From Sphagnum compactum (taxonomy: Eukaryota): DNA of 64,000 bases. The notes below the pieces were generated by a model, which worked only from the letters and a program-made list of their open reading frames with translations, was not told where the DNA came from and did not search any database. Both the position numbers and the translations under genes were made by a program. Below, piece after piece: positions 3,076-38,625 of this stretch; the first letter of the stretch is position 1; the number at the start of each line of letters is the position of its first letter. The stretch covers positions 33,656,213 to 33,720,212 of the forward strand of contig OZ234493.1 of assembly GCA_965153455.1 (NCBI GenBank). The letters run 5' to 3'.

Positions 3076-6000
3076 GTAAACATAGAGCTAAGAAAAAACT
3101 GCAAGAAAAGCTTACACAAAGAGCTTGTACCTGCAATAACATGATTACAATAGTTTTGAATGCTGTGTCAAGAGCTGTTAGAATTCACAAGTGGTTTAAA
3201 ATTCTTCCAAATCTTTACACCAGGTAAGGATCTTGAACGGAGGGGTCCTGGGAAGGAATGTGTGTCCTGTGTTAGGCTCTTGCCTTGTGCCAGGCCCTCT
3301 TCGTAGCACAGCCCTGCTCTCAGTCATTACCATTATTTCATCCTACAAATGACCAACCGGATGAGATGCTTGTTCTAGGCCACCCAAGAGAGCTAGTCCC
3401 CAGCAATGCACTTGTTGAACAGATGTATGTGTTTTCTGGGGTGTGGCTCACAAACCTTCCTCATGCTAGCTCTAAGGTTTTTTCCTTTGTATTTGAAAAC
3501 ACCTAAGGGCGAGGAAGATGCTTCCCTCAATTGGAGGGGTCTTCCACTATTTTGATGCAAACCTTCCATCATTCAAATGCATGTGCCTTTTGTTCAAATG
3601 CATACATTTCATACTTTACCAGACCTGCTCCTTAGGCCTCCCCTAATTTTCAAACCTAGACCTCGAAGGCTATGCGCCTCAAAGCAGGGGAGGCCCTTTG
3701 GCGTAGGCCTTCCCCTATGTATACATTTGGGCCAGAGTGAACCAGCATCCACTAGTGCACCATGAAGGATGGAATGTATTTGGATAGGAAACATTTTTTC
3801 AATGTATTCTTGTCCTGTAGCTAACTAGAACCCATTAGTGCACCATGAAGGATCTGGGGATTTTTTTTCAAAGTTTTCACGCAGGTCCATTGGTGAGGAT
3901 TCCCAACATTAATTAGCATGAGATGGCAATTGTCTTAGGTAGGTTGTAGCTTTTTCTTTAAATGTTGATACAAGTGACAAAATAAGAGGTGCCTAGCAAG
4001 TCATTTTATTTCTGGCTATGTATTGCCAGAGCTCTGGGGAAAAAAAGGCTTGATTCCAATGCAAATGAATCACCTTTCAACCCCCTATGAACTGCCCATA
4101 ACCTTTGAACCACCCATGTACAAGTATTGTTTTTGTTGCTGCCCTGCCCAGCATTATCCCACAAGGGGTTGTCAGAGTTAGTGCGGAGACCAGTCTCCCT
4201 CTGACTTATTATATATTATCCTACAATGGAACCCATCTAAGTGATAGGAAGCTGCAGTAGGGACTCTTATAACATGTAGATTGGAGAAAATTAAATAAAC
4301 TAGGGCCAGTGTTTCTAGTTCAATAAAGGAAGAAAGAAATTTTAATCTAAATTCTTATACCATGCTCCTTTCACTTGAATCTACAGTTGCTACAGGATTT
4401 TGTAGGATATTTATCTCCTTGCCATCCCTACACATTTAATTTGAGGAATAATTGCCTGCAAGTTGCATTCATGTCACAAAAACAAATTCTATTTGCAAAC
4501 TTATGTCTTGAGAGTATAAGTTTTTTCTATCATTTAAAGTTATTTTAACAGTTATATTGAAGTCACATGTACCTACACATGAGTTCAAATGTCTTCCTCT
4601 AAAGGTTAAACGAATGATAAATTCTTTTCAGAAAATTTTTAACATATATTCTCATCTTAGGTGTTTTGAGCTATCAAAGAATATCAAACCCAGGAATTAT
4701 TTATTGAATATTAGCATTTAATTTGGTCAATCACATGGGATAACCATTTTATGTAACTCCATTAATTGAATTGCCCACTATGAGTGGCTACTTCAAAGGC
4801 ACCTAATGTTACCAATAAAGAGTGCAGGGATCAATTAATACCAATTAGGGAACTTTTTTCAATATTGTGATTAAAAATTTGGAAGTTTTCCACGAAATAG
4901 AAAAAATATTCTAACGCACATTAGAAAACCCAACTTTACAAAAACAATCTTTATTTTTTTCAATAAAAAACCAAAAAACTATTGAAAAAAACTGATATCA
5001 ATATTCCCAAATATTGAGTTCAAGTATGTATCATTCTTACTTCCTGGAACGAAAAGTTATCAGATTAAATGGCATTAGGTACAAGCAAGCAAATGGCGAA
5101 TGACTCTGCCCTTCATGGCAAGCTCAAAACCAACAAACTGTTTCACAATGTGAAGTTTACCGAAACCTGGACTCACAGTTCACACTGACACCTGGTGAAC
5201 AATCCTCAAAGTGTAGACGCAAATGAAAGCTACATATCTCAGCTCTCCCTTAGAAGCAGCTCGACCAATAGAAACCAGATTCTTTTGGGTTTCTGTTGGG
5301 ACACCCGTGCGCGCCCCCTAAGCAACTAGTGGAGAAATTTGTGTCTGAACTTGCATTTATATTCTACCAATTCCACGTTCACGTGCTATGTTTTCATCCC
5401 GTTCCTATTCCCAAATCAACTGGCACTGCTGAGCATGTTCACGTTCGAGCAACTTCACGTGTGCATGTTGCGGCCTGCTGTTGGCGGGTCGGTGAAATCG
5501 TGAAATCATGACCTCTGTAGCAGAGTTCCAGTGATTTTTTCTCCTTACAAATTTTGTCGTTTCTCTACCAGGAAAAAGGGGAATTTTTAAAGTTTTCCTT
5601 TCCTCTTTCTAGTGTAGATCTGGCTAATTTTGTATTAAACATTTGTAAAATGTAGGCAATTGCTTGTACAATGGTAAAATTAAATAATTATATAATTTTT
5701 GAGGTTTTCTCAGACAAGTCCAGCAACAGGCATGTACTCCATGTGCAAATTGATGATAGAAAATTGGGGAGGGTCGAAGTCCCCTGTCGGTAGCGGGAAT
5801 GGACTTGGTGAAGATATATACATGTACGAGGGTGATGACTGTTGAAGCCATTTAGCCACGTGTGAACCACAAATCCTTATTATCTAGGAATTATGCCTGT
5901 AATTAATCTAGTTAAATTTAGTTAATCTAGATTGACCGTTTACTATAAACTTACGGAGAGCAAGTCCTTCCATAATTAGAGGTTCTATGTACGGCGCCGT

Positions 6001-7694
6001 CGCTCGTCAAGGGGGGGCTCGACAAATGGAAGTATTCATTTCTCATGGCGTACCCGTTCGCTCTTGAACTTCCTTAGTATTAGAGGACTTTGTATATTGC
6101 AAGACCACATTTGGACGTCACTAGCATCTCGTAAGCAAGTGCTCCGTGTCACAAAACTTTTTCAAATCTCCTCAGAATATATCTTAAAACAATGAACCTG
6201 AAAGAATTTTTCATATCAAAATTTCAAATCGAATTTATGGATTACAGCCGTTTGAAAATATTCATGCACCTCCAAAATTGTAAGCGCTCATCATGCATCG
6301 TCGACAAACAAAAACGCAGTTAGTTAATATTCACTAATGCCGTATTTTAGTATCGAATAAATTAGTAAAGAATCCGTTTTTGCCTTCTCGGATCACATGT
6401 ATAATTTATGAACGGTTAGAACTTGCAACTCGACGTGAAAATCACCTGGAGATATAAGCTGGAAACTACTTATAATTTGCACGCAATTAACTCCTTTTCC
6501 GTGGACTAAGAAATGACCACCACGCAGTTGTTTCTTAAAAACTATCAATCCACTGTTAAATTTGTTTATGGTTGCAGCGCTCACGTTCTTCGTACATCCC
6601 CTTATAAATCTACAGCTAAGGCATGCAGGAAATGAACGTCACTAATGGCTTTGAACATTAATTGGTACCTTAATTCTTTCTTCTGTAACTTCAGCAACAT
6701 TAGTCCACACGCTAACTTTCCTTCGCTTAATTAGTGTCTATTCATCTCTCTAGATCTCGTATTTCAAGAGTCCAGGTGCTAATTCACCTGAATTTAGATC
6801 ACTCTAGCTTGCGCCTATTGAAATTAGTCTGTAACTGTGCAATATTTAATTACTTGAATCTATATAAAATTTTATATAGTAATTCTCGCACAAGAACATC
6901 TTATAAATTTGTTCTAGACATATACACATCCTTCACTAGTCATAAAACATGCTTGTAAAAGAGTGTATGTGTGTTTTTGGGGGCTAGCTAGCAAGCTTTT
7001 ATAAGCCGTTGTGAGGAGTTAGTATAAGATTAATACAAGAGCTTTTTGTTCCTGAACATCATCTAGTGCAACACAACCACACTAATCCAGTATTAAAACT
7101 CATAAACTTACTTTTTTAATCGTCTTCCTAGAAAGAGTTTCATGAGCATATATGATCAATCCACGTACCAGGAACGCTCTACTACATATCAAAATGGTTC
7201 AGCTTATATGGTGAACTAGTATATATACCATTCCCGCAATTGGACTACTTACAAGCCGGCTGTGAAGATTATATTCAAAAAAGTTGTCTCAAAATCCAGC
7301 ATCCCTCTACATGCGAGAGAAACTGCGTAAGTGCTGATCAGCTGTCTTGGAAACATAGCTGATTATAAGACGCGTGCTGCAAGTATCAGTATTTTTTTGG
7401 TTCTGGAATATTAAGATAAATGTCTTCAAAGAGAATCAGCTAAGGTGGAGATCTGGCATCCTAGTCTGGAAGAATAGAAATTGCAGCTGATCCAGAATGA
7501 CAACAGATTGACCCACTAGAGCAGACATTGAGCTCAGAATTAGGAATAGAACTTGACAGACCAAGACTTCCAAGGTGCAGTCGGATCCTGCAGCTGCACC
7601 ATGCAATATGTGTCGCATGATCAAGCTGTTGTAAGTTGTTGACAACCGGCTGGATCACGTCATTTGCTTGTTGGCACCATGACCTACTGCTGGC

Positions 7695-10600
7695 CTAATC
7701 CAGTGGACGAAGGATCTGTAGCAATACAGGATCAAAGGGTAGGTATGGTCGACCTCCAATGAGCACACCAGCAGGCTCATCAAAGCGTCCAGTTGCTGCC
7801 GAGTTATTTGGCAGATCGTCAGCAGCTAGTGCAGCAGCATTGTTTCCAGCAGCATCAACTACTAGACGAGCTATGATCTGCAGTGGATCATCGGCCTGCA
7901 CATACCACGGTAGGATTAATGGCGCTGGATTAATGAGCTCAAAGTCTGTAGTCGGCTCCACGTCATGCAGGTCGACTACCTGCTTCTCCCAGCTTATGGT
8001 TACTGAGGTTTCATGTAGGTCATCATCATCATCAGCTGCTAGGAGCTGGACACACTGATCAGATGCAGTACTTCCGGAAGCTGCTGGAATGTCTGTGTGG
8101 TTGATGCCATTCTCTGACATAGTGGCATTCTGAATTTGTAAACAAACAATTACATTTCCTGGACCTCTCCTGGACTCACATCAGGCTCAATTCACACTGA
8201 ACCCACAATGTCAGCCTGCCAGAAGGCCATCAGTCGTCTTGGGATTTTACATTGTCTTGAAGAAATTGTTTTAGATGGATCAAGTAGCATCCCTTTGAAG
8301 TTTGAACGCTAAAAGAGGATGACATAAAGCATGAATTAGTACCTGCTGCAATGTCTGGTTCCGTGCCCCAGCTGCTGCAGCAGTGACTCCTGCTGCAACG
8401 ACGTCCTTCTTGCGAGGAGTATATGGCTTTCGGGGGGTTTCAGGAGCACCTCCTACAACGGCGCCCTTCTTCTTGCGAGGAGTATATGGCTTCTTGGGGG
8501 CCTTCTGTTTGCCCCGTCCCCTCTTCACTTTTTTCTGAGCGGAAGGTACTGGAAGTCCAGCATCTGTAACATACCAAACACATCAGTTATAACTTACAAC
8601 TACATAGTATCAGAAGGAATTATCTTGGGAAAGGGAAAGTTCAAAGGACATTACAGTGTAGTACTTGACCTGAAGGCTCATAGCTTGGTGGATCATCATG
8701 TGGTGCAAGCCACTCACCGATGGCAGCTTGCTGTGCTGTAAATGGCAGGGTCCGGACAAAAAATGTGTCTTTGATCATTTGAGTCATGTCCTTGTTTTCT
8801 TGCACGGCTTTGTCGTAGACAGCTCTGCAATCAACCATCACTTAGGGCAACAATCAGTCATGTATCCCATACGAAAGCTAACTTCGTTGTGCAGCTGATC
8901 TACATGTATGCCATTTCTCTTAGATGATTCTAAGCTCATATGTACATGTGTCTTTTGATTGTTGCTTCATATCTCTGCAGTTTAAGAAGCAGACTTCCAA
9001 GATTCATACATACTGCAATTGTGATCACAGCACACATTAAGAAGGTCTAGAAGAGGACCCGAAGCAGAAGCTAGGGTTCCAGCTACTAAATAGGGTTTTC
9101 ATGAGAAAATATTAAGATCATAAGAAAGGAAAAACAAAACTTGATTCAAGCTGCATGTCAAGAACTACAGGAACTCATGCATGATCTGCAGGGTACCTGG
9201 CTGCTTCTTCCTCGGTGCTGTATGAGCCGACGATTTCACCAAGCGGACTGCCAAAACAATAAATATTCAAGATCACCAATAAGAAGTTCTTCCAGTCAAT
9301 GGTCATTATAAGTATCTCATGACCACATGTAATTCCTCACATGCTGATGATGACTCACAAACCTATGTTTGTGTTTTCGTCTCATGAGTTCAGTTGCACT
9401 AAAGGGGTCAACATTGCACAATGCAGAATACAGACTACTAACAAGAGTACACAACATTCACTCATGATCACTGCAGTGTCGATAGGAGAGAAATTCGATG
9501 TGCAGCATGTGGTGAAACATAGATTCATGCATATTACACGCAGGAATGTGTATGTTTACCTCCTCTTCCAGTTCTCCCCGTAAGGAACCTCGAAATTTCC
9601 ATCCTTTATCTTCGTCATACAAGGGTATGTCCATACAGCACCAGGTCCCTTGCTGTCTCCTCTAATGAACAGAGCCATTTGGTCGTTGGTGAGAAGCTTC
9701 AGCTGCAGTGAACAAAACCACGCAATGAATGAATGAATGAATTCATCAAGCTGTACTTTCAGATGGATCCCTCCATGCAAACATCATGTCATTCGTGTTG
9801 CAGCAGATCATCTCGCAACCCATGATCCAATTACATAGTTGTATAAACCAGTACTACTTAGAAATCAAAGGATCAACGAGACTTCTAGCTAGGACCCTGC
9901 AACCATGATAGAAAGATATCAAGGAAGAAGAGCTCTCATAAGAACATCAGAAACTGCCAGCTACAAGCTTTCTGTACCAAACCTGCATTGCTGCTTACCC
10001 TTCTCACATCATCGTCGTATTGTTGAGCAGGCTTGAAGTTGATACGATCCTGGAACCCCTCGCCTCTCAGTAAAAGGGCTGCTTTGTTGTAAGCGCTGCA
10101 ATAAGACCACACATGATCCATGAGCTGCACTCAGACAACAGCATAGGCAATTGTTGTTACAGCTTGTTCAGCATTCTCACTGTCATTCATGCATGGTGCA
10201 GCACGACAATTCACAATCCAGCAGCTGCAGCTGGTTACTAGTTCATGAAGAACTGCTGCTTTAATGTATGGTATCCTAGCCAGCTCAAGAAGCAAAACAG
10301 TACTCCAAAAATTAGGTCTCGAAGATACACTCGAGTATCTAGATGTGTACCTTGCAGCTTCTTCCTTGGTGGCTGATGCACCTGCATCCAAGATCAACAA
10401 GCAAATGCAAACAGAATGAGATGGAAGACATGATGAGCAGCAACAAATTGACATCCTCTACAATCAAAAGAGCAGCAGCAGCTGGTAATGAGAACTTTCT
10501 GATCGAGCTTGGCATGCTAGAAGTTAGAGCAATGTACCGAGATAGGGGTGTTTATGCGACTCCACATCAGCAACGTCCGTAGCTTGCGCGCCAACGTCGT

Positions 10601-11297
10601 CGTTGGCGGGGAAATCACTTTCACTGCCATGGTCATGCAACTGCAGCTGCTGAAATACGGCAGCTACTATACCAGCTTCATAGACGACACTCGACAGGGA
10701 GGGCTCATAGTGAGTGACATCTTCCATCTCCCGGCCACCCACTGCATCACCCATATTCTCTTGCACCATCGACAGCTGGTGAGGGTACTCACGATCGTAG
10801 CGGCGGACTGGACCGCCTTCGTCGACAGCCATCATCGAACGCTGCTGGGTGCTGTCTTCGCACGGGGAGAAACGCATCAGCTCCTGAACACAAAACTCAC
10901 ACATACATCTTCCTTGAGCGTTGACAGGATCAGCGCCTTGCAATGGTGTCGTACCCAGGTTGACGTTGTTGCCTTGGTCTTCATCGTTTCCATAATGAGG
11001 AGGAACTGCAAAATGGAAGGCGGGGTCCATGGGATACCAAGCATATGTGGGCCGTGTAACTTCGGACATCATGGCTTCTCTGAGGAACGGAGGAGCACGA
11101 CCTGGGCGAGAAATTTCAGGACGTGATTGCAGATGAATTCCTGGCAAATCCAATGTCGAGCCCGGCGCCAAACCAAAAGCCCTTTGAAAGCGCTCAACAG
11201 TCTCCGCATTCGCCGGCATCTGTCCGAAGTAGAGCTGCACGCGGTCTTCCTGCATCCCACTGTCGACGTTCGGAACCATGTAGAGATCTGATTCCAT
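7695..11297 (-). CDS. Paralogous euAP2-like gene with an internal in-frame deletion (no NLS, no N-terminal half of AP2-R1), about 614 aa, 8 coding exons; functional gene or young pseudogene
   Basis: Exons, all GT-AG and in frame (1845 nt): 11297-10538, 10381-10351, 10095-9999, 9702-9560, 9247-9197, 8824-8718, 8563-8343, 8129-7695. Homologous exon by exon to 33641-37846 ([63 protein letters not shown]). No stops or frameshifts seen. Confidence 0.78.
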
Positions 11298-11529
11298 TCC
11301 TTCTATCTTTCCACCTGAGAGGCAAGAAAGTCAGTGGTGCTGCTTCGTGAGATAACAAAAACAATTGTTCCCAGAACTTCAGACCTACTCCATGCGATCT
11401 GGAAGGGAAGAAAAAGACACATACCTGTGCAAGGGTCAAAGGAAAGAAGACGATCTGAAAGCAAACGGAAACTCTAGTGAGTTACTGCACCGCACAATCT
11501 CACAGAAAATGCAGCCAAGAAACGATAGA

Positions 11530-11612
11530 TCGCGAGAAGAGCGAGAAAGAGAGAGAGAGAGCGCGAGAGAGAGCGAGAGCGCGAGAGCAAGGAAAGAGAC
11601 AGAGTGAGCGAG
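11530..11612 (-). promoter_or_regulatory. GA/CT-rich tract in the putative 5' leader or core promoter of copy A
   Basis: (GA)n-rich run upstream of the CDS, conserved with 38565-38625. CT-rich leaders and GAGA (BBR/BPC) elements are common in plant genes. Confidence 0.5.
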
Positions 11613-11810
11613 CTTGGGGTCTCGCGACTTTCGCGGCGATCGAAGGAGGACAGCCGGGACTTCTTCGGGTCGGTTTGGTTGGTTTCTTTTAGGGTTTGTT
11701 TCTTCGGGTCGGCGGCCTCGGGTACCGTTGGTTCTCAGTCAACGAAGGTACTCAACTGGTCAACAAACTGGAGACGTCCCCAACTGAGGTCCAGAACAAT
11801 GTTAATAATG

Positions 11811-12129
11811 TAGTATTGGGCGGTTCTCAGATATAAGCCGGTTATCTCAAGGAGAATCAATGGTTCCAAATTAGTTGAGAATCGCCTTCCCAAGAACCAT
11901 CTCGGGTATCATTTGACCTCAACTTTGGTACTCAAGTCAGATATTGATTGGACCACTAGGTTCAGTTCTCAACCTACCACAAAAAGTGGAGCTTACTTTT
12001 TTTTGGTAGTTCTTAAAACATTTTATACAAAAAGTCTTAAGAAATTTGGGGGCACAGGAGGGGATGTTCTTAAAATTTATTTTAAGAACTAGAATTGGTG
12101 ATGCTTAGAGAGAGAACTGCCCAACATTG
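11811..12129. mobile_element. Related MITE upstream of copy A
   Basis: TIR-like ends TAGTATTGGGCGGTTCTC...GAGAACTGCCCAACATTG. No clear TSD. Confidence 0.6.
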
Positions 12130-13829
12130 ATTAAAAACTGCCCGTTTCAATTAGTATGAACTAAACTAGAATTGGTTCAATGATTTTTTTAATTGGAAGT
12201 GAAATTGGAGCCTGATTTTATTTCTTAAAGAACCAGATGCAGAACTGGATTTCTCAAATCTATTTATTGTGAAGCCCAAATCAGAACCAAGACTTTTGAA
12301 AACATTGAACAATGTTTTTATAGAAAAAACATCTGGCAAGGGAGGTTAAGTGGCAGTTCCGGTCTGGGTACTAAGAACCGAAGTGAAACTAGGTCTAATG
12401 TTCACAACTGGAACCATAATTCTTTTGGGTTATGAATCTAGAACCAAATTCCTAGTTTCATGTATTGTAACCAAGCCGGTCATGGTACACTTAAGTGCTC
12501 AATGCATAATAACTTCTTCATCATGCATCCATTGTAGATGGACTACAAAGACAAGTTCTAGCTTAGATCTTGGTGCACCTAGAGCTTTTTGGATCATGCA
12601 AAATGGGGTTGGTTTGAGTGAAAGATGGCTAACAAAAGGAAGGGTGATCAAAAGTTCTCAAAAAATCTAGTTGGATCAGAGAAATTGCTATGAACATGTG
12701 TTGTCAGCCTTACAACCTATAACAAAAGCCTGAATGGTAATTGTTGGGACCTTCAGCACCACACCAAACTGGATGGATGTTGAAAACAAACACATTCTTG
12801 CTAAAACATTGTTTACTTTCTATTTATAGCTGAGATTTTGATTAGAAATAGGGCTCGTGAATCAATGGTGATGGGATTGTTGTTGTTCCATGAACCATAA
12901 GTTTGAGAATGTTAAAAGGTGTCATCATGTGTCTCTGGGTGTGGGTGTTTCGTGATCATGAAAAGTTGGCCTATTTCACCCCACAATGCATGTTAAGAGC
13001 TTTGATGGTGGACCTTGTTGGGGAGCTCCAATGTCTTGGCTAGCTTTTTGTGGTGCAATGTTCTTCATGATCTTTTGGTCCGTTGTTGTTGAACAAGTGG
13101 GTGATGTCATTATTATGAAACATTTCACAATGTCTTTGCATATTATAGTAGTCAAAACCCAAATAAGTCAAATTCCAAAAAAAATTCACTTTTTGGTCTA
13201 ATATGATGTGATGTTAGAATATATTTGTGCCAAAAATATATATGTTATAGCGTTTTAAAAAATGCAAATATATTCCAAACATGATTGAAATGGATTTTAG
13301 TCTTTGTGAAATTTGTAATATCTATTAAACATTATGATTCCATATGATTAAAATAAGTTTGTGAACCATGTGAAAAGTTTGATAATTATCATATCAAAAA
13401 TGGGTGTTTTTGGGGGTGATGACCATAAATATGTGATAAATTAACATTTTGATAAACTATCATTTTTAAGTGGAAGATGACAAGATATGTGAGGTGGATC
13501 ATTTTTTAAATTACATTTCAAAAAAATTTTGACTAATTAATTCAAACCCAAACCTAGTGTAATCCAAAAATAGAAATAGGTTTTATTATATTACATATAC
13601 CATAAATATACCCATTATTTTTTCAAATAATATTAGATGTCATTAACTTTGTGAAAATCAAAATATGAAACCCAAACACCAAAAATGAAACCCAAAATTA
13701 AATGCAACACATTTTGTAGAAATATACTTTACATACATGTAATGAAAGTGCCCAAAATGGCCCCCCTGTAGTGTGCTTTCACCTAAGTCCAAATGTTATT
13801 GAAATGTTAATCACGTTCCTGTTCCTGCC

Positions 13830-14185
13830 TTATGTTCATCACATTTTTTATTACTGCTCATCACTTTAATGTTCATTGTGGTTTTTTTGTTTTGTTCATC
13901 ATCTTGCTGTTCATGTTTTGTCCTTTGCAAGTGTTCATCGCCTTAATGTTCATTGCGGTCCTCTATTGGTGTTCATTCTCTTGATGTTTGTCATAATCTT
14001 CTATTGATGTTCATCACTTTGATGTTCATTGTGGTCTTCTATTGTGCTCATCACTTTAATATTCGTTATGGCACTTTGCTAATGTTTATCCCCCTAATGT
14101 TTGTCATAGTACTTTGTTAATGATCATTGCCTTGATGTTTGTCATGTTCCTAAGTTTTACAAATGTTCATCAACCTCATGTTTGG
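13830..14185 (+). repeat. Degenerate tandem repeat (TGTTCATCACTTT(G/A)ATGTTCATTGTGGT motif)
   Basis: Recurring TGTTCAT units. Confidence 0.65.
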
Positions 14186-14959
14186 GTGTAGTCACAATCC
14201 AACAAGCTATAAAGGGGGTCAAATCACAAAAAACAGGGTCAAAATTGGATAAGTATTTATGTTTTGCCATTTAAAGCCATGGCAATCATAGCAAATTATT
14301 ACTTTTTCATTCATATGAATGTCAAGGAATTCAAACCAAAAATCCATTTGATGAAATTTTAAGTTTAGGTTTTGATTCAAGACCTTTAAAACTGAACTTT
14401 TATGGTGTCAAATAGGAATCAATTTTGCAAAGGATTTTCAAAAGGACTCATATAATAAAACACATTTGGTGGAAAAAAAAGAAAAGATAAAGACTTATTA
14501 ACCACATTGAAAAAATAATTATATTCTAAAATATGTGGAATTCTAAAATTTCAAAAAAAATTAAAAACTTTTCAAAATTGATCTAGAATTTTAGAACTTT
14601 GAAAGTCCTTTATCACATATAAATGAAGTATAATCTACATGGTGTTAAAAAACTTGTAGTTTATTACAAAAGAAAACATAAAAATGTATAAGTTGAATTT
14701 TTGGTTACGATTTGAGATTGTTATCGTTTTTATAAATAGAACATTGAATTTACAAAGAATCACAACACTTTCAAATTTTCATATTTATTCAAAAATGATA
14801 AATAAAAAAACTTGTCATGTACGGGAATAATTATAAGCATTTATTAAATAACAAATTGCAAAAACATTGTTCCAAAATTCATTCATATCAAAAAAAATTT
14901 GGGAGAAAAAGACATGCAAGTCTTTTTTTAAAATAATCATGTTAGTTCATTGTATTTTT

Positions 14960-15380
14960 TTGCACCCATTTTCCATGTTTTTTCCTTTATTGCAAGTCAA
15001 GATCATCCTTTCCCCTTCTGCCCATCACCCCCAAATATTCCCAATTAACTTTTTAAACATTGTAGTTTTATTATTTAATGTGATCCTTCATTGCCATCTT
15101 TGTTAATCAACATCATGTTTTCCATGTTTTGTTTTCTATTTAAGTCAAGTTCATCCTCCCCTGCCTTTGCCCCCCCCCCCCCCCCCCAAATCTTCCTAAC
15201 TTGTCCTCCAAATGTTGTGGAACACTACAACCTTACTATAGTGTGACTTTTTACTACCATCCTTGTTCATTGACATCATGTTTGCCATGTTTTGTTTTCG
15301 ATTACAAGTCAAGCTCATCTTCCCCCCTCCATGCCCCCAAATCTTCCCGGCTAGTCTTCCAAATGCTATAGAATGTTGTA
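14960..15380 (+). repeat. Three diverged tandem copies of about 150-165 bp
   Basis: CCATGTTTT...AAGTCAAG.TCATC.TCCCC...CCCCAAAT recurs near 14970, 15120 and 15285. Confidence 0.65.
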
Positions 15381-18300
15381 ACATTGCTACAATGTGACCC
15401 TTGGCTACCATCCTCTCCCTTGCCCATTACCTTGTCATCGTTTGAACTATTTACAATAGCCCAAATTCACACTTTTATACCCTAGTGGATGTGCCCTAAA
15501 ACCTAATTGATAGTATTGGTGAAAGTGGTTTCCAACGTCTCTTATTATTGCATGGTAAACCACGATGCCAAAAATCATGCCCTTGCACATTTGTTTGCGA
15601 CCTTGTATTCTATTCATTCAATGGTTGTCAGCAAATATATTGTTTTCCTATGTCACTTGTCGTCCCTTTCCCTTCACCTTTCTTTGTTAGCCTTTTCCAT
15701 CATTACCTTGTCCAATTTTTTTTCCTTAGGATTACTAAATGCTCATCAAAGTTCACAACAATAGAACAAGAATAATCCATTAGTGGTTCATTGCCCCTAG
15801 TTTATTTTATAAGTAGTTAAAGTAAGGCTAGTAAATTATGCATGCTCAAGGCATTTTTGGTCAAGTTTATGCAGCTTTGGTTTTTTTTTTAATTACTATT
15901 CACTAGAGCTAATTAACTAGATTGACTATAAATTCTTGTGATACTACCATTTCATATACCTTAACCTGAGTTGAAAAGGTAAAATGAGCATGTCTAATCC
16001 AAACACATGAACCTACTTTATTGATTTCAACATGACGTGGGAACCGTGTCCATCCAAAATCAGTAGATGGTGATTGGTGTTAAAAATTTCACCCCACTAC
16101 AAAAAATCATAGTTTTTAGAAAGGTTCAACTTGACCAAAGTGTTCACATTGACCAAAAGGATGTTCATTTTGGCTAAAGGCATGGAACATGAAAAACACA
16201 TGGTTATTTAAGTTGGTTCTTTTGACTGAAATGATCATTTTGACCAAATGTTAAATTGTACATCTAGTCAAAAAGGACAATTTTTTTAAATGGTTCATCA
16301 AGATGCCCATGGCCTAATCAAATAAGCCATATTGAATGGCCATGTTCAGTCAAATATATTATTTTGGTTAGTTAGCATACTTGCTATGCTTACTAAAGTA
16401 TTACCTACCTATAATATATACCTACCTATGTTTTACCTATACCTACCTACTACCTACCTACATACCTACCTATAATTTACATAAGTAGGTAGGAGGCCAT
16501 GGTGGTAAGGTAGGTCATGGGTGGGTGAATAAGTAGATACTTTGTATTTATTTATTATTTACAATTTATATTTACAAATTGAGTTTTTTTTTAATTAATT
16601 TTTTTTGGCTGCCTAATTTTTAATCCAATTTGATTAGTCAAAAAGACCATTGGTTTGACATTGCTTGATGTTGGGAATACTCAACAAATGATCACCTAGT
16701 TGAAAAATGCATTCAACCATATACCAATATAGTAAATGAGTTGACTTAATTAATAATTATCATAATTTTACTTAAAATATTAATCCCAATTGCAACAGAG
16801 TTACAAATGACATGAGGTTGAAAACCTTTTGGTAAAAAAGAGCATATTCTGCTAGTGTCTATTACATCAACATTTAATCTTTCTAGCTTCACATGCTTCA
16901 ATTTCATATTTGCATTTTGTTGTTCATGAGGAGGAGACATAGTGCTCATAGCTGAAAGAAGATGGAGAGGAGTTGTGAGACATGCTTTCTATATAAATGG
17001 ATTTTCCTTTGGCTAAGTAACTTGTGCACACATATGATATTTGGAGGGAAATGCAAACCTTAAATCTTTTAGATTTAGGAAAATCATTGAGTTGTGTTCC
17101 CATTCTTTGGTGAGGAATGTGTTTATTGCATATTTAAAGATCTTATTATGTTAAGGCATCCTCCATTTACTGATAGGAATTAATGTTTTTACAAGACACT
17201 AGAAATCATCGACTTTATGGTCATTTGGGCTCATTTGCATGCCCCAAATTATGATAACCCACCCCCTTCGACCAAACATTCCCATTTTTTTGTTACCCCA
17301 ACTTTCCCATATGGGGCACTTTCACCCGTTTCCATACATTTTTCCCCCCATTTATGTACACAATTTTTTTCATTAACAAAGATATTACTTCTTCAGTCTA
17401 GTGCTACATCTTGCCCATGACCAAACAGGTTAAATAAAAAGTCCTCATATTTGCCTCCAAGCATGATCAATAACAGGCCCAATATTATGCAACACCACAC
17501 TCATGACCAAACACAACCCCATTTTTTATGTACAAAATCATCTTAATTGTGCATGGCATACATGCTCATTATGGAACACAACCTTTTTAAGGTGGGACAA
17601 AATGTCATAACAAAGAACACAAAAGTTTGTGATGGTGCGTTAAGCCATAGGTGGTTTTGTGTCCAGCCAACAGTGTTTGACTAACCTTTGGTAGGCTAGG
17701 TTCTGAATACAAAGGGTGTCCCATTTGTAGGCATGTGTACCATGATGGACTTGATTACCCTACAACAAGTTGGAAGCATGGTTTTGTTTTTTCAAATTCC
17801 TCAAGAAGGTCCACTAGCCAGGATCCCCCATATTAAATGGCGACTGTCGTATGTGGGCTGTAACATTTTTACATTTAAGTGCTGCTATAAGTGACGACCT
17901 AGGAAGTACCTAGGTCAAGATGTGGTTAGTTTAATTTTTAAAATATTTTTTAATGACAAAAAAAATTTTAAAATAACTTTTTTGGATTTTTTTGCGAAGT
18001 TGCAAAACTTTTCCCCAAAACAAAAACTAGTTGGATGGTTGCTTCATTTCTTTTCAAAAAAATTAAAATGAAAATATTATTTTTTATGTAAGACTTTAAG
18101 GAACAAAAAAATATATAGTACAAAACAGGAAAATTTGCAAATTTCAAGGCTCCTCTAAATGTCTACAAAACTCCAAATCATAATGCAAACATGGGTTGTG
18201 ATTCCTAGATTTCAAAATAGATTTCCGAAAACAAACTTTGGTCACCTAGATGACCCACATGACCATCTTACCAATGATTGTTTTTTCAATTTTGTAATTT

Positions 18301-18817
18301 GGTCAAGGTGGCAATGATCAAGAAGTCAATTTAGCTGATTTTTTTTATGAACATGAAAGGAAAAGAAATTAAACATCTCTACTTTTTTTGAATTTTTAAA
18401 TATTAGGCAAAAAATTTCTTTCAAAAATTCATTGGATTTGCAACAAAAAATGCCCAATAATTAGTAACATGCAAAATTTTGCACCCAAAAAAATGGCTAC
18501 CTCTTACAACTTGGATTATAAATTTCCCGTACGTTGTGCTCAAACTCATTAATTGGGAGAAAATTTCTAATTTCTAGAGTTAACATGAAAATCTTATTGA
18601 TTTTTATCAACCTCTGAATAGGTAGTCATTTTGCAAAATGGTAGAATCCCCATCCACTTCAACATTTAAGCAACACCCCATGGTTTGCCAAGTTTAAATC
18701 CCATTTACTCTTGTTCAGTTGATGTTAGACACAAACATTCGACCCATTCAAGTATCTAACCATGTTGCAAATATGGGTTAGAATATGGAACCCATCTCAA
18801 ATTAGTTGTGCACCAAC

Positions 18818-19098
18818 CAACACTTTTTTTTTTCAAAATTTTTCCATTTTGTGAAATTTTTAAAAATAAAACAAAACTTTATCAAATATCGCCTTTTTAA
18901 AAAAATTACCAAAAATGGATAAAATTTTCTAAAAATCACCATGTGTTTCTACTCATTGTTCAAGCAAGTAGCCAGGATATAAAAGGATTTTAATAAATTT
19001 GTACTTTTATAGCTAGTCTATAGCCAAATGTGACTAAATCTATTTGTGTATGATTACCGATGTGACAACATCACAAAATTGAAAAAAAATAAATTTAT
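18818..19098 (+). mobile_element. MITE present only in duplicate A
   Basis: Flanked by a CACCAAC duplication. The paralogous site near 44065 is empty (TGTGCACCAACTAGAC). Confidence 0.65.
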
Positions 19099-21086
19099 CA
19101 CCAACTAAACACCAAATTATTGGTTATGTGAAAATTAAAAATCTCCACACTTTGGAATCATGTGTGCATTATATGACATAATCAATCATCAACAACAAGC
19201 AAACATTTTGAAAAGGGAACCACCCGCCTATAAGGACTTGTGTTTTAGTTTTGAAAATGCCTACATTATTTATATTTATTTTCTACAATGATACCATACC
19301 CAGCTAGTGGTTGGTCCCACCAAGTATCATGAAAAAATAAAATAAAATAAAAATGATGCACGTTGATTTTTATGCCATGTAATGCCTATGGTAGTGGGCA
19401 TTATTGGAATCAAGCCTCCTTGCACTATGCCAAAACATAGCAAATATGAATACACCCATGACTAGGTTCATAATAATAAATACTATTCATGACTACATGA
19501 TTATGTAATGAACATGAAAATGTAAATTATCCATTAATTGTATTTTTTTCCCAATCATAAATCCTATGGAATATGTTGTATATTTCAATTTAATCTAACC
19601 ATTTGATAGATAGGTAAGAGTAGGTAAGTAGGTAGGTAGGTAGATAAGACTAAGTACATAGGTAAATAGGATCCTTTTTTTTTTTTGGTGACAAGCCTTT
19701 TTTATTGGTTTGTCACAAAAAATATTTACACTTTGAATATATTTAGTGCATGTATTGTGAATAGATTAATATTTTTTCATCTAGTTATATATTTTACAAA
19801 ATTAAACTTGTTGACAAAGATATGGGATAAATTTATAACATCATCTCACATCATCTTTTGTCCCATACAAAAGTACCCAACTTTGACTATTGTCTTTTTC
19901 ATAGGTTTTTGTCCAAATGAAAATAAATTTCATTCTTAAACATTTTCCCAAGATCTACACATCTTTATGAAAATTTCAACCAAAATATCAAGTAATTTGA
20001 CCAAAAATGCATTTGGATTTTCACCATTTCATACATTTGAACAATAATGATATCTTGAAGACTTTTTTTTTTCATAAAAAATGATTTGTAAATAAACATA
20101 TTTAAGGCAAAAGTTCTAAATATTATAGTGTATTAGTTTTTTATTTGTGCACTAATTATGTGTTTGATCATCTATAAGCTTATAATATGCTTACTAAGTA
20201 CATATGTCTACCTTCTAGATCTTTTCCCTTCTAGATGTTCATGAAGAAGATTTTTAGTCACATAGTCTTATCCATTAAGACTTTTAGTCATGTAGTCATA
20301 TCCATGGTTACAAGAATATGACTAAGCACAAAAACATGACATATATGATTATATGAGCAAAAAATGGTTATTTATCATATTTGTTTTAATCATAAATGTC
20401 AAATTTTGGCATAGAGTCAGTTTCGCCTCATGTGAAGCCTTATTCTGGTAATACCTAAAATGTTATTTCACATTAAAATACCTTTGTGCAAATTGCAACC
20501 TTTACGTTACTCACTTTTCAAATATCTTCCCCTAGTTTCATGCAAGTTTGACATAATCCACATTTGTGACAATCTAAATATCAATTGTGGCAATTAATGT
20601 TATTCATGGCTAGGAGAATTCTATTGTAACTCAAACATGGGGTTCTTTGTCATGCCCAATCGTAAACTATTCCAAGGTTTTTCTTTGTACTTGAAAGCAC
20701 TTCCCAATTCAAAGGATGCATTTGTCAATCAACCTTTTGTTCTTCATTTGCAAACCTTCCACCATCCCTAAGTTAAACCAATGTTGTAATGTTATCTAAG
20801 GTGCAACCTAGGTATATAGTACAGGTATGAGTATCCCCTCTACATTATGCAAATTTGCCATAAGCCCAAAGAAGTATTATGAGGGTCATTGTTGCTTCAC
20901 CACATGCCACAATCACAATATAGTTCATAAGCAAGCCCTTGGAAATGCCTTTTTAAAAAAATGGTGTTTAACAAAAGAACCCCCTTCAAATACAAGCTAA
21001 TATGAACTTATTTGGGTTGTTAACTACACCTTTAAATTGATAATCAAACTAGAAGTTCAATCCAATTTCTAGTTTGGTTCATGTAA

Positions 21087-21998
21087 CCAAAACCATCTCA
21101 TCAAAGACATCCCAAAATTTGTAACGAAGGATTTGCATCCCCAAATGAATGCCCCATCCAAATAATGCAACAACTTTTTATCTCGTTGGATTTAAAGGTG
21201 CTGGGAGTGGGACTGTAGCAATCCTTGGTTACAGTCACGAATGCTAATGATGTGAAAGTGGAGACCCTAAGTGAAAGTGCTTGGGAAAGTTCATTGGCCT
21301 CTATGTTCATGGAATTCCCAAATTTGGGAACTTTTGAACTTATTAGTTTCAAGATGCCAAAGATGGAAATGGACAATCTCCAATCCATGAGCTTGTCAGC
21401 AGAACAAGTTGCAAAACAATTTGGAGTGGGTTTGAAAGACTTCCATGGAGATCACTTCATTATGGTGAATGAGAAGGAACAAAGCAACACGTTTTATCCT
21501 CTTATATGGAAGGTGGCTAAAGAATACAAGGCATTCAAACAAGGTAATCTTCATGTGACCGAACAACCTTCAGAAGGTGGATCATCTACAGGAGCTTCAT
21601 CAAGTGGAAGCATTCAACAAGGAAAAAAGGAAGGTGAAAGTGTACAAGGTCGGTCAATATTCAAGCTAGCAACTTGGTGGAAATGGGGGAAAGGTGATGA
21701 AAAGAATGATGAAGACAAACCACTAAGTGGGGATCCACCACCTGATTCTGGACCTTCAAGTGAACCAGAGAGGGTTCCTCCTATATTCACAGTGAATGTC
21801 TATCCAGAGGCAGGGCGCAGATTCTGAGATGCCGCTGAAATTCCACCACAAATTAGGACAGCATCTATCAAGCCTAAGATGAGGATTGAGTTTTTTCGAA
21901 ACAAAAGCTCGTCTAAATTCCTTCGTGTCACAACACAAACACAATGCAATCTTGGTCAATTTGCTACCCAAAATGACTTCGGCATTAATACAAGTTAG
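21087..21998 (+). pseudogene. Disrupted fragment of an unidentified protein-coding gene
   Basis: One frame stays open for about 300 codons apart from two in-frame stops (TAG 21216, TGA 21825) and includes the 200-aa ORF 21225-21827. Composition is protein-like. The segment is absent from the paralogous interval (about 44365-44660). Confidence 0.5.
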
Positions 21999-23071
21999 TA
22001 GAGGGTTTGTCTCCCTTACTAAAACTTTCATAAACAATGTAGTGCCCTTGAAGCGCATATTCTAGAATCCACAAAAGGCAAATTAGTAATTGTTTCCTCA
22101 TAAAAGTTGATAATGGGATGATGCATCAAAGAAAGATTTGCTTTGCACCAATTACACATTTGCCCAACAATTGCAACTCTCACTTGTGATTTGCAAATTT
22201 GTCCAAATGGTTACTTTGGGGCAAGTTTGGACCAATGTTGTGCAAGTATTGAGTTTTAAAAGAACATATTGTCCCAATTATTATAACTTTGGTTACCCCT
22301 TTGGATAAGGTTTTCAATTTTTTAATAACTCTTCTAAAAACTTTGGTTATAATTTCGTTTATTTCTTGCAACTCATGATGATTATTGAGTATGAGATTTA
22401 AAGTTGTTGAAGTGGACGCAATTCTGAATATGGTTAGGATTTAGGGTTACGGTTTCAAAAGTTCTCATTTGATGACTTGGATTTTATCATTTGATTTTCC
22501 TACACATCATACAATGTAACAAAACTTACAAAATAAATAAATAAATAAATTTAAATGCATATTACATGTGAGCATAATGCAAGGTATGTTTATAATAGAA
22601 ATGATGTAAAAGTTCTTATCTATAGCTCAAAGTCTTAGCATTCTATAATCATCTATAAGATGATTTTTTATTCAAAATGATGAAGAAAACCTTAAACCCT
22701 CATAGTACTTAATTAAAACAATGAAATTAGGGCGCCTCGATGGTTTCCTCCACTGAAAATAGGCAAGTAGAATATTTCAAGTTTTACCTTAATTCTACCA
22801 CGATTGGTGATTTGTAGCTAAGGCTCCATCAAGTTCTTAATATTTAGATCCAATTAGGTCACATTTTTATAGATGGATCTAGAACCACCAATTTTAAAAC
22901 TTGGATCTGGGTTCCTGCACAACATTGGTTTGGACTAGCTTTGTGCAAAATTTTATTAAATTTTTTTTAAGAACCATGATTACATACCAAAACTAGTTAT
23001 TTGATGTTTTGACAATCATGATTTGAAATTTAAAAACCGCCCAAGACTGGTTAGGACTGGTCTGTTAGGAC

Positions 23072-23914
23072 CAGTGCTAGCCAATTCTCATTTTTTACCC
23101 GTTAATAGGTACATGGACCTCTAGTTCAAAATTTTGAAAAGAAATTCAGAATTGCAACAACCATCCTTTAACTAAAACTGGAACCAAAACCTGACTCTAA
23201 ATTCAACACATCCAGCTTTCGATTCTGAAAATTTTTAATTTAAAAAATAACTAAAAATCTAAATTGTAGAAATAAATTTAATTTTTCTATTTTAAATAAT
23301 TTTAATTTTAAAATAATTTTAAATCTTAAATCTTAAAAATAATTTAAAATGAAAAAACGAAAAAATTACATTATAGAAAATAATTTTCATTTTAATTATT
23401 TTCATTTTAATTTTAATTTTCTGACTAGGGCTAGAGATGTTGTTAGTTTTGAATAATGACAGTAAAACGTTGTAGAATAATAATTTGGGGGTGGGTGACG
23501 TGGTTATGAGGGATGTAGGTCTTACTTTTGGGACATGTCTCAAGCATGCAATTTCTTTTAGGAAAATTTTAAAAATTGGTGAGCTTGGACACATAGTTGA
23601 TATTTCATTGACATATTTTATTGGTGGTACAGTGCTAGTCAAAGGAAGAAAATAAATCAGTTTTGGGTTATGAGTATGTAAGTAGAACTGGATCCAGTTT
23701 AGAACCAGATCCGTCTAGGAAGTTGTTTTTAAGAATTGGGAACCAAGGTTCATGAAATGTGAGGGAACCAAATCCAAAACTGGACCAAAGGTTCTATCAA
23801 AAATTTCAAAATCCTGCAACTGGAACCAGAAGTTCTTTCAAATCCTTTTTTAAAAGTTGGAACTGGAACCAAAGGTTTTCTTGAAAGGTAGGAACTAGGA
23901 ACCAGCCAACACTG
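23072..23914. mobile_element. hAT-type MITE
   Basis: CAGTG...CACTG ends, perfect 8-bp TSD GTTAGGAC, internal GGAACC repeats. Confidence 0.75.
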
Positions 23915-38564: not shown

Positions 38565-38625
38565 AGAGCGAGGAGAGAGAGAGAGAGCGAGAGAGAGCGA
38601 GAGCGAGGGAAGAGACAGAGTGAGC
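38565..38625 (-). promoter_or_regulatory. GA/CT-rich tract in the putative 5' leader or core promoter of copy B
   Basis: (GA)n-rich run inside a block (38510-38795) conserved with 11484-11796. Confidence 0.5.

What the first reader, a model, noticed from the sequence alone, without database searches (positions are those of the whole stretch)
7695..11297. Intact-frame euAP2 paralog lacking its DNA-binding start, NLS and EAR motif: candidate decoy partner of the neighbouring full-length gene
Seen: relative to copy B, 453 bp (B 36495-36947) are missing at junction 10569/10570, with GTTG microhomology at both ends. This removes 101 codons (the KKKRKPRK and [15 protein letters not shown] basic stretches and [21 protein letters not shown]) plus the 150-nt intron 1, and fuses exon 1 in frame to the 38-nt exon. 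MDFDLN has become MESDLY. All seven downstream exons, their GT-AG sites and the frame survive despite many substitutions, and the total length change is a multiple of three. Known: those beta-strands contact DNA in AP2 domains, and DLN motifs recruit TOPLESS. Inference: this may be a selected non-binding or non-repressing antagonist, making a linked regulator/decoy pair rather than a dead copy.
Basis: partly seen in the sequence, partly recalled or inferred. Interest (0 to 1): 0.78.

Follow-up and report, generated by a model that had tools for sequence, protein, structure and literature searches.

The report
Old truncated AP2 gene copy in Sphagnum
A peat-moss AP2-type regulator gene has a neighbouring copy that long ago lost part of its DNA-binding domain and its repression motif yet still reads as an open gene in several species, although I found no sign that it is switched on or acts as a decoy.

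Summary
On the minus strand, copy A (7695-11297) lacks 453 bp present in copy B (B 36495-36947). These are 303 exon bases plus the 150-nt intron 1. The loss is in frame, has GTTG at both ends, and all GT-AG sites are intact. B is an annotated Sphagnum compactum AP2 protein.

The deletion is not an assembly error or a recent accident. The same junction and the MESDLY start occur in A-type proteins of S. tenellum, S. jensenii and S. troendelagicum, and in DNA contigs of two other organisms.

The evidence on function is split:
- For a kept gene: no frame-breaking indels and no stops in four gene lineages, where neutrality predicts several.
- Against: A's former DNA-binding region evolves about 3 times faster than B's, with omega near 0.9 on the A lineage (my estimate). 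Changes are spread evenly along the protein. One relative carries a premature stop. A polyA RNA run of the same species label gave 0 reads. No gene model of 424 aa or more was found for A in S. compactum.

Verdict: an old truncated paralog under relaxed constraint. The decoy role is untested, and "no NLS, no DNA binding" is overstated.

The parts
7695..11297 (-). Copy A, whole coding span. Exons: 11297-10538, 10381-10351, 10095-9999, 9702-9560, 9247-9197, 8824-8718, 8563-8343, 8129-7695. It encodes 614 aa.
   Evidence: open frame, 7 of 7 introns GT..AG, one stop at the end; orthologous annotated proteins in three other Sphagnum species.
10570..10574 (-). Deletion junction (10569/10570) with its microhomology. 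The 5 bases match both edges of the 453 bp that B has and A lacks.
   Evidence: Bridged by contigs of X9, X12 and X18.
11271..11288 (-). A codons 4-9, DLYMVP. This is the broken counterpart of B's DLNMVP (DLNxxP-type EAR motif).
   Evidence: MESDLY is present in 6 of 6 A-type sequences that include the N-terminus. The motif definition comes from the abstracts of PMC6283911 and PMC9956375.
10351..10538 (-). What is left of AP2 repeat 1 in A. It comprises the ..HKHPYLG end of the fused exon (10538 upward), intron 10537-10382, and the 31-nt exon encoding ASATKEEAA. Together with exon 10095-9999 it keeps only the helix half.
   Evidence: WRI1 structure 7wq5 aligns to the A-type protein only from chain position 41 on.
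8718..9702 (-). Linker and second AP2-like repeat of A (exons 9702-9560, 9247-9197, 8824-8718).
   Evidence: in the ortholog P0004 this part is modelled as strands 324-327, 331-336 and 347-352 plus helix 355-369, pLDDT 67-87; best fold matches are WRI1 and AtERF1, none at E <= 0.001.
8343..8563 (-). Exon 7 of A. It holds the retained basic repeats ([30 protein letters not shown]). These are a possible nuclear-localisation or nucleic-acid-binding stretch.
   Evidence: In run X12 one repeat unit is lost by a net 75-nt in-frame change at 8369-8447.
7695..7820 (-). C-terminal tail of A (the last 41 residues plus the stop codon), invariant among the three A-type sequences compared.
   Evidence: longest invariant run is 41 columns, permutation p 0.042. 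One search shows one change (R to P) in S. jensenii copy 1.
8670..8717 (-). In-frame alternative donor 48 nt downstream of the exon-6 donor. Read through, it gives GEWLAPHDDPPSYEPS, the very insertion present in the annotated A-type proteins of the other species.
33641..37846 (-). Copy B, the full-length gene, 771 aa. Exons: 37846-36651, 36500-36463, 36307-36277, 36018-35922, 35636-35491, 35183-35133, 34784-34675, 34483-34266, 34069-33641.
   Evidence: 100% identical to P0001, an 'unnamed protein product [Sphagnum compactum]'. Pfam AP2 PF00847 scores 43.9 bits against a cut-off of 33.3.
36495..36947 (-). The 453 bp of B that A lacks. It comprises 303 nt of exon 1 (two basic clusters and the strands of AP2 repeat 1) plus intron 1 (36650-36501). 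Its placement is shiftable by the 4-base microhomology.
4523..24641 (.). Left unit of a direct tandem segmental duplication. Its partner is 29921-45847. A and B sit at equivalent places in the two units.
   Evidence: self-blastn, 72-86% identity blocks in the same order.

Best explanation
Copy A is an old, in-frame truncated tandem paralog of a Sphagnum AP2-lineage transcription factor.

Shown:
- A 453-bp genomic deletion removed two basic clusters, the three DNA-contacting strands of AP2 repeat 1, and intron 1.
- The N-terminal DLNxxP repression motif was lost by N to Y.
- Both changes predate the split between S. compactum and the S. tenellum / S. jensenii / S. troendelagicum group.

Inferred:
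- Since then the reading frame has been kept open by selection against frameshifts and stops in most lineages.
- Constraint on the former DNA-binding region has gone. The protein now evolves evenly at about the pace of the unconstrained parts of B.

Most likely reading: A encodes, at best, a weakly constrained and partly dispensable protein. It cannot bind DNA the way B does and cannot recruit a co-repressor through the lost motif. If it acts at all, it can only act by competition, through what it keeps. That is the shared N-terminal motifs, the second AP2-like repeat, the basic PYTPRKK repeats and the conserved C-terminal tail. In S. compactum it appears silent in the one tissue sampled.
For: 1. 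The junction and MESDLY start are shared.
- 7 of 7 A-type sequences carry ..TDVADVE(P/S)HKHPYL.. (P0004, P0005, P0050, P0052, P0057, P0047, P0055).
- 3 of 3 other runs that cover the place have the junction.

2. The A clade is monophyletic and sister to paralog D, which keeps repeat 1 and MDSDLN. SH-aLRT is 100 for A and 95 for A+D in the quick ML tree.

3. The frame has been kept.
- Between A and B, 12 of 12 unambiguous coding indels are multiples of 3, against 12 of 34 in introns (Fisher 8.6e-5).
- Within the A crown there are 5 in-frame protein indels and one net 75-nt in-frame change in DNA. No frame-shifted segment was seen.
- Neutral expectation is 3.9-11.8 frame-breaking indels.
- At DNA level, 6 of 7 indel places in non-coding parts of X9/X12 are not multiples of 3, and none lies in the CDS. 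The expectation for the CDS is 3.7, P 0.024.

4. There are no stops in four gene lineages with 98 variable columns of 529. The expectation is 4-5 stops, P(0) 0.007-0.02.

5. All 7 introns, plus the splice sites of the 5'UTR intron, are intact in A.

6. Constraint on the domain is relaxed.
- Variable columns are 46 for A against 14 for B of 226 in the domain part, but 16 against 14 of 103 in the last exon.
- Polarised changes are 39 on the A side against 7 on the B side, binomial 1.8e-6.

7. The second repeat is still modelled as an AP2-like fold.
Against: - Amino-acid-level constraint is not detectable. Pairwise A/B omega is 0.77 overall, 0.55 in the domain part and 1.48 in the last exon. Splitting by the 39:7 polarisation gives about 0.9 for the A lineage. 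That figure is my arithmetic and assumes equal dS on both branches.
- Variable sites among A orthologs are evenly spread, with dispersion 0.9-1.06 and p 0.14-0.37.
- Of the 14 coding differences shown for X9/X12, 5 are synonymous and 9 are not. This does not differ from neutrality (p 0.26-0.38). Seventy further differences were not shown.
- X9 carries GAG>TAG at codon 518.
- The S. balticum-like A copies (P0005, P0057) lack 28 aa between a GT and an AG present in the window. This may be a predictor's way round a lesion. Their exon-6 donor also seems changed, inferred from G to D in the protein.
- With 1 or 2 lesions counted, the stop test weakens to P 0.03-0.11.
- A_comp itself has changed residues that all other family members keep, for example R264S in EEAAR, and has lost two of six cysteines of a CxCxxC pair.
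- There were 0 polyA reads.
- No S. compactum model of 424 aa or more was found for A.
Confidence: 0.45

Rival explanations
1. Unprocessed pseudogene. The deletion killed the gene. A is transcriptionally silent and decays slowly. The open frame in S. compactum and the tidy gene models elsewhere are survivorship, predictor artefacts, or the result of too little elapsed time.
For: - Omega is about 0.9 on the A lineage in the former domain (my estimate).
- Substitutions are evenly spread.
- Exons downstream of the junction differ from B (3-17.5% per exon) about as much as the introns do (8.6-29%).
- There is a nonsense codon in X9.
- The S. balticum-like copies may hide a lesion and have a changed donor.
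- 0 of 11.9 million polyA reads were laid, and the only RNA-library contig is unspliced.
- A is absent from the S. compactum proteins found.
- S. fallax has consecutive locus tags for D and B with no A-type member listed.
- The sister paralog D is itself heavily shortened, so the family shows birth-and-death turnover.
Against: - There are no frameshifts in any of four gene lineages, although 3n indels accumulate at about the neutral expectation (5-6 seen, 2.2-6.5 expected). The expectation for frame-breaking indels is 3.9-11.8.
- There are no stops in those four lineages, where 4-5 are expected.
- At DNA level, non-3n indels occur only outside the CDS.
- All splice sites are intact in the window.
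- The RNA result is flagged by the tool as 'no test', because the organism's presence in the run was not shown.
Confidence: 0.38
2. A is a positively maintained decoy or antagonist of its neighbour B. It is a non-binding, non-repressing protein that titrates B or B's partners and forms a linked regulator / anti-regulator pair.
For: - The frame has been kept, as described under the best explanation.
- Protein accession numbers suggest that A lies beside B in 5 of 5 annotated arrays. This is my inference from the numbering: S. tenellum 730/731; S. jensenii 758/759 and 921/922; S. troendelagicum 398/400 and 497/501.
- The EAR-motif loss is fixed in 6 of 6 sequences.
- The first 13 residues are unchanged in four of the six A-type sequences compared, and the two S. 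balticum-like copies differ only at residue 14. The last 41 residues carry a single change.
Against: - No interaction surface is known or conserved above background.
- To my knowledge, which I did not check, AP2-lineage factors are not known to need dimerisation.
- The region that would compete for DNA evolves fastest.
- A nonsense allele removes the conserved tail in one relative.
- No expression was seen.
- Adjacency is what any tandem duplicate shows.
Confidence: 0.15

Closest known systems
APETALA2 / TOE-type (AP2-lineage) double-AP2 transcription factors
   Same: - B's nearest named relatives outside mosses are APETALA2, APETALA2-like and RAP2-7-like proteins.
- It shares the [22 protein letters not shown] strand block, the linker ..LTK..(F/M)...LRR.S.G, and an N-terminal M-x-DLN motif also seen in the Citrus, Oryza and Rhodamnia proteins.
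- The solved double-AP2 structure WRI1 7wq5 matches B at E 3.5e-19.
   Different: - The whole moss clade (Sphagnum plus Physcomitrium P0010) has an atypical second repeat, YP(C/G)V.K...K(F/Y)EA.Y instead of YRGVT.HK.GRWEAR, and 4 extra residues in repeat 1.
- The AASSGF stretch of the flowering-plant proteins is not present at the aligned place. I recall that stretch as the site of microRNA control.
- A additionally lacks the repeat-1 strands, two basic clusters and the DLN motif. Pfam finds no AP2 domain in A-type proteins at E <= 1.
microProteins and other dominant-negative truncated paralogs of transcription factors
   Same: A arose from a transcription-factor gene by loss of DNA-binding parts while other parts were kept. 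It would have to act by competition or titration.
   Different: - microProteins are defined as single-domain proteins under 20 kDa that dock onto a compatible domain of their relatives (abstract of PMC9638782).
- A is 614 aa and keeps no known protein-interaction domain.
- No interaction has been tested.
Unprocessed (duplicated) pseudogenes in tandem arrays
   Same: - It is a tandem segmental duplicate.
- It has a domain-destroying deletion.
- It evolves faster and more evenly than its neighbour.
- No reads were seen.
- One relative has a nonsense allele.
   Different: The open frame, the canonical splice sites and the indels that are exclusively multiples of 3 persist across species.
Sphagnum paralog 'D' (P0009 cluster: S. 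jensenii, S. tenellum, S. balticum, S. fallax, S. troendelagicum)
   Same: - It is the sister of A in the tree.
- It shares derived states with A, including LLTNDQ in S. jensenii, LRGDSKG, AVWTYP and VRTL.
- By accession numbering it lies in the same array.
   Different: - D keeps the repeat-1 strands, part of the basic cluster and MDSDLN.
- As annotated, it has lost about 250 N-terminal residues and the last exon.
- Its crown branches are short (0.003-0.056), whereas A's are 0.02-0.047.

Membership tests
AP2/ERF superfamily, double-AP2 (AP2) subfamily | Two AP2 domains detectable by the family profile (Pfam PF00847) | tested here: not met
   For A-type proteins, P0004 and P0005 give 0 Pfam families at E <= 1. 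Only a colinear remnant is left: WRI1 7wq5 matches at E 0.0025, starting at chain position 41. B (P0001) meets the feature, with 43.9 bits against a cut-off of 33.3 in 2 stretches.
AP2/ERF superfamily, double-AP2 (AP2) subfamily | Three-stranded sheet plus helix in each repeat | tested here: inconclusive
   In the AlphaFold2 model of P0004 (mean pLDDT 45), repeat 2 shows strands 324-327, 331-336 and 347-352 plus helix 355-369 at pLDDT 67-87. Repeat 1 shows a helix only, at low confidence. Foldseek best hits are WRI1 (E 3e-3) and AtERF1 1gcc (TM 0.64 over 49 columns), with none at E <= 0.001. The S. compactum protein itself was not folded.
euAP2 lineage (APETALA2/TOE) | Closest named relatives are APETALA2/TOE rather than ANT/PLT/WRI types | tested here: met
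   All named hits outside mosses that carry more than a generic label are APETALA2, APETALA2-like, AP2 or RAP2-7-like. The search was made with B, not A.
euAP2 lineage (APETALA2/TOE) | The microRNA-controlled AASSGF-coding site near the 3' end. That this site defines the lineage is recalled, not checked. | tested here: not met
   The motif is present in P0011 and P0042. At the aligned place the Sphagnum proteins read TAAAENDQ (B) or TAAAAGARNQ (A). No nucleotide search for a microRNA site was made.
EAR-motif repressors (DLNxxP type) | A DLNxxP or LxLxL motif (abstracts of PMC6283911 and PMC9956375) | tested here: not met
   A reads DLYMVP, in 6 of 6 A-type N-termini. B, C, D and E read DLNMVP. 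Other LxLxL matches in A were not screened. Binding to TOPLESS cannot be tested with these tools.
microProteins | Under 20 kDa, a single interaction domain, binds its larger relatives (abstract of PMC9638782) | tested here: not met
   A is 614 aa. No interaction domain was identified. Binding was not tested.
Pseudogene | Frame-breaking lesion or loss of splice sites | tested here: not met
   There is none in the window copy. One nonsense codon was found in run X9, and there is a possible hidden lesion in the S. balticum-like copies.
Pseudogene | No transcription | tested here: inconclusive
   0 reads were laid from about 12% of a polyA RNA run with the same species label. The tool marks this as 'no test', because the organism's presence in the run was not shown. 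Only one lay was allowed, so B could not serve as a control.
Pseudogene | Neutral substitution pattern (omega about 1, even spread) | tested here: inconclusive
   A-lineage omega is about 0.9 in the domain part (my estimate). Changes are evenly spread. The shown differences are 5 synonymous to 9 non-synonymous. Stops and frameshifts are nevertheless depleted.

The most novel reading that the evidence does not exclude
A-type genes are a Sphagnum-wide, selectively retained class of AP2 'half-factors'. They lack the EAR motif and the repeat-1 strands, but they keep the second repeat, the basic repeats and a conserved tail. They sit beside their full-length relative in a conserved array (E - D - ? 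- A - B). They would act as stage-specific competitors that relieve B-type repression. That would be a linked repressor / anti-repressor cassette in an early-diverging moss lineage.
Probability: 0.15. Interest if true: 0.7.

Novelty: new variant of a known kind. Interest (0 to 1): 0.4.

Why it matters
If A-type proteins are made and act, they would be an example, in the AP2 family and in an early-diverging moss, of a transcription factor turned into a competitor by one in-frame genomic deletion. The deletion removed an intron and half a DNA-binding domain, and the copy was kept next to its parent for the whole radiation of the sampled peat mosses.

If they are not made, the locus is a useful calibration case. 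Here an open frame, perfect splice sites and tidy gene models in five annotated genome copies coexist with near-neutral protein evolution. This shows how annotation can carry a decaying copy as a normal gene.

Either way, the array of four or five paralog types (A-E) shows rapid birth-and-death turnover of AP2-lineage regulators in Sphagnum.

Tried and rejected
Steps that led nowhere:
- The whole genome is not held. Other copies such as C and D, and the A loci of other species, could not be read as DNA.
- Pfam on single exons gave nothing, because the domain is split over exons.
- RNA run X22 laid 0 reads. The tool calls this no test.
- The metatranscriptome X18 gave only an unspliced contig over 10263-10635, two 151-nt pieces at the 3' end, and short pieces that run on into B- or C-like sequence. 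This does not show transcription. Unspliced paralog pieces in the same library suggest DNA carry-over.
- Earlier findings of this scan: nothing was found by place or by sequence.
- The literature search 'Sphagnum' + 'APETALA2' + 'transcription factor' returned 42 papers, of which 10 were listed. None concerns this family by title or abstract start. I read no paper beyond the listings.
- The careful ML tree did not finish in 300 s, so the quick tree (SH-aLRT only) was used.

Explanations rejected:
- Assembly error. The junction is present in three other runs and in seven proteins.
- Retrocopy. All other introns are retained.
- Recent gene conversion from B as the reason for the open frame. A sequences of four genomes form one clade on a long stem. 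Old conversion is not excluded, because A/B divergence is uneven along the gene, at 8.6-29% per intron.

Corrections and steps not taken:
- My first use of P0002 as B's ortholog was wrong. It belongs to a separate B-like paralog (E). The rate comparison was redone with the true cluster members, and the result did not change.
- Complex prediction was not used. There is no defined pair of domains expected to touch, and a negative result would carry no weight.
Full report
**What the window is**

Exon 1 of copy B finds a 771-aa 'unnamed protein product [Sphagnum compactum]' (P0001) at 100% identity on a 36.96-Mb contig. Its sequence equals my spliced model of B. The window is therefore peat-moss nuclear DNA (taxonomy). 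Both genes are on the minus strand.

**Check of the observation**

blastn of the two loci and a global alignment show that B 36495-36947 (453 bp) has no counterpart in A. The break in A lies at 10569/10570, with GTTG at both edges.

The gene models are:
- A: 8 exons, 1845 nt, 614 aa.
- B: 9 exons, 2316 nt, 771 aa.
- Every intron is GT..AG, 7 of 7 in A and 8 of 8 in B.

The missing stretch is the last 303 nt of B's exon 1 plus the 150-nt intron 1. The 303 nt are 101 codons holding [23 protein letters not shown] and [21 protein letters not shown]. In A, exon 1 runs in frame into the counterpart of B's 38-nt exon. MDFDLN has become MESDLY.

**Not an artefact and not private to this genome**

Contigs of three other runs bridge the junction: X9 at 10459-10643, X12 at 10459-10645 and X18 at 10263-10635.

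A search with A's fused exon found A-type proteins in S. troendelagicum (P0004 628 aa, P0005 600 aa). The cluster listing added S. tenellum (P0050), S. jensenii (P0052, P0057) and metagenome ORFs (P0047, P0055).
- All 7 carry the same junction peptide ..TDVADVEPHKHPYL...
- 6 of 6 with an N-terminus start MESDLY.
- P0004 and P0050 differ at 1 of 628 positions, and P0005 and P0057 at 5 of 600.

I therefore count four gene lineages: S. compactum, the S. tenellum type, S. jensenii copy 1 and the S. balticum-like type. The statement that the last three belong to another subgenus than S. compactum, and that S. troendelagicum and S. jensenii are hybrids, is recalled and not tested.

**Family context**

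The window holds a direct tandem segmental duplication, 4523-24641 against 29921-45847. Sphagnum has at least five paralog types:
- B, full length.
- E, B-like (P0002/P0089).
- C (P0003, same S. compactum chromosome, not in the window).
- D (P0009 cluster).
- A.

In a quick ML tree the Sphagnum genes form one group next to Physcomitrium P0010. A is monophyletic (SH-aLRT 100) on a long stem (0.18) and is sister to D (95). D keeps the repeat-1 strands and MDSDLN. The deletion therefore happened on the A stem, after the A/D split and before the species split.

Accession numbering suggests the order E - D - ? - A - B in the annotated genomes. This is my inference.

Outside mosses, the nearest named relatives of B are APETALA2, APETALA2-like and RAP2-7-like proteins. 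These also start M-x-DLN. 'AP2 lineage' is therefore fair. The moss clade, however, has an atypical second repeat and lacks the AASSGF stretch of the flowering-plant proteins at the aligned place.

**What A lost and what it keeps**

Lost:
- The repeat-1 strands, two basic clusters, and three further N-terminal segments of 34, 47 and 6 residues.
- The DLNxxP motif. The motif definition comes from the abstracts of PMC6283911 and PMC9956375. That AP2 recruits TOPLESS through such a motif is recalled.

Kept:
- The helix half of repeat 1, the linker and the second repeat.
- The basic [20 protein letters not shown] / [10 protein letters not shown] repeats.
- A cysteine-rich CxCxxC pair that B lacks.
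- A C-terminal tail.

Pfam no longer sees an AP2 domain in A-type proteins. WRI1 7wq5 aligns only from position 41 on, whereas it matches B at E 3.5e-19. An AlphaFold2 model of P0004 is mostly low confidence (mean pLDDT 45), but it folds the second repeat as three strands and a helix at pLDDT 67-87. Its best fold matches are WRI1 and AtERF1, none at E <= 0.001. 'No NLS' and 'no DNA binding' are therefore not established.

**Tests of selection: signs of relaxation**

- Pairwise A/B omega is 0.77 over 566 codons (dS 0.235). It is 0.55 in the domain part and 1.48 in the last exon.
- Exons downstream of the junction differ from B (3-17.5% per exon) about as much as the introns do (8.6-29%; 15.3% overall).
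- Of 48 A/B amino-acid differences in the domain part, 39 fall on the A side. These are 5 shared with D, 21 on the A stem and 13 private to S. compactum. Seven fall on the B side and 2 are unresolved (binomial 1.8e-6). With equal dS on both branches this gives omega of about 0.9 for A and about 0.15 for B. That is my arithmetic.
- Among four genomes, variable columns for A against B are 46 to 14 of 226 (domain), 36 to 25 of 200 (N-terminus) and 16 to 14 of 103 (last exon).
- Changes among the three A sequences compared are evenly spread, with dispersion about 1 and p 0.14-0.37. The exception is an invariant last 41 residues (p 0.042).
- Of the 40 differences shown for X9/X12 (70 more were not shown), 14 lie in the CDS. 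Five are synonymous and 9 are not, including GAG>TAG at codon 518 in X9.

**Tests of selection: signs of retention**

- All 12 unambiguous coding indels between A and B are multiples of 3, against 12 of 34 in introns.
- Within the A crown I see 5 in-frame indels in proteins and one net 75-nt change in X12 DNA. No frame-shifted stretch was seen. The neutral expectation is 3.9-11.8 frame-breaking indels.
- In X9/X12, 6 of 7 indel places outside the CDS are not multiples of 3, and none lies in the CDS (expected 3.7, P 0.024).
- No stop occurs in the four lineages, where 4-5 are expected (P 0.007-0.02). Counting the X9 stop and a possible hidden lesion weakens this to P 0.03-0.11.

One caveat applies. 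Three of the four lineages are predicted proteins, which cannot show a stop. A lesion would appear as a skipped piece, and one such piece exists. Twenty-eight residues are missing in the S. balticum-like copies between a GT and an AG that are present in the window.

**Expression**

A polyA RNA run with the same species label gave 0 reads on 7200-12000, out of 11.9 million reads (about 12% of the run). The tool marks this as no test without a control stretch, and only one lay was allowed.

The only RNA-library contig over the junction retains two introns.

No S. compactum protein of 424 aa or more comes from locus A. The A-type clusters hold no S. compactum or S. fallax member, while the S. fallax D and B genes have consecutive locus tags.

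**Weighing**

The deletion is old and shared, and the frame has been protected in most lineages. The protein evolves almost freely, is broken in at least one relative, and shows no transcripts here.

I read A as a relaxed, partly dispensable truncated paralog (0.45). The main rival is a slowly decaying pseudogene (0.38). It would need expression, a partner and a phenotype, and none of these was testable here.

**Comparison and novelty**

Truncated transcription-factor paralogs acting as competitors are a known kind (microProteins; abstract of PMC9638782). A fails their size and domain criteria. I found no paper on this Sphagnum family (listings only).

I rate it a new variant of a known kind, of moderate interest.

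Noticed in passing
window 33605-33670 (minus strand): Copy B in S. compactum ends 10 codons earlier than its orthologs. It reads ..RSFDP, then TGA, then LLQILGPKD and a second stop. S. fallax and S. jensenii B proteins, and all A-type proteins, run on through ..LL(P/L)QILRP.D. The full-length neighbour therefore has its own small C-terminal truncation.
   Followed up: partly
window 4523-24641 and 29921-45847: A direct tandem segmental duplication of roughly 20 kb. Blocks are 72-86% identical and lie in the same order. A and B are equivalent members of the two units.
   Followed up: partly
window 10850-10900 (A codons about 133-150): A- and C-type proteins carry a CxCxxC..CxCxxC cysteine pair that B has deleted. 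The S. compactum A copy has lost two of the six cysteines (SPCEDS instead of CPCEDC). Run X9 has Cys at one of these places. The stretch is modelled as short helices at pLDDT 73-78 in P0004. It may be a metal-binding motif of unknown role.
   Followed up: no
window 8670-8717: The first 48 nt of A's intron 6 are open in frame and end at a second GT. The annotated A-type proteins of the other species include exactly this stretch (GEWLAPHDDPPSYEPS). The real donor in A may be the downstream one, which would give 630 aa.
   Followed up: partly
window 56309-56782: An ORF with a Transposase_21 (tnp2 family) match, E 2.5e-21. It is probably a DNA-transposon remnant.
   Followed up: no
window 53908-54711 and 54845-55201: An A+T-rich tandem array with a 25-nt unit, about 27 copies at 86% matches. 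It is followed by 130-nt repeats.
   Followed up: no
window 11534-11613: A CT/GA-rich simple repeat in A's upstream / 5'UTR region. The read-laying tool skipped it as a repeat. The 5'UTR intron's GT and AG are conserved between A and B, but A has 16 extra bases between the acceptor and the ATG.
   Followed up: no
proteins P0009, P0075, P0077, P0078, P0081, P0083 (not in the window): Paralog D, the sister of A, is annotated at 425-429 aa in five species. Its N-terminal region is much shortened and its C-terminus reads into what is an intron in A and B. Yet its crown branches are short. It may be the better candidate for a conserved short AP2 variant.
   Followed up: partly
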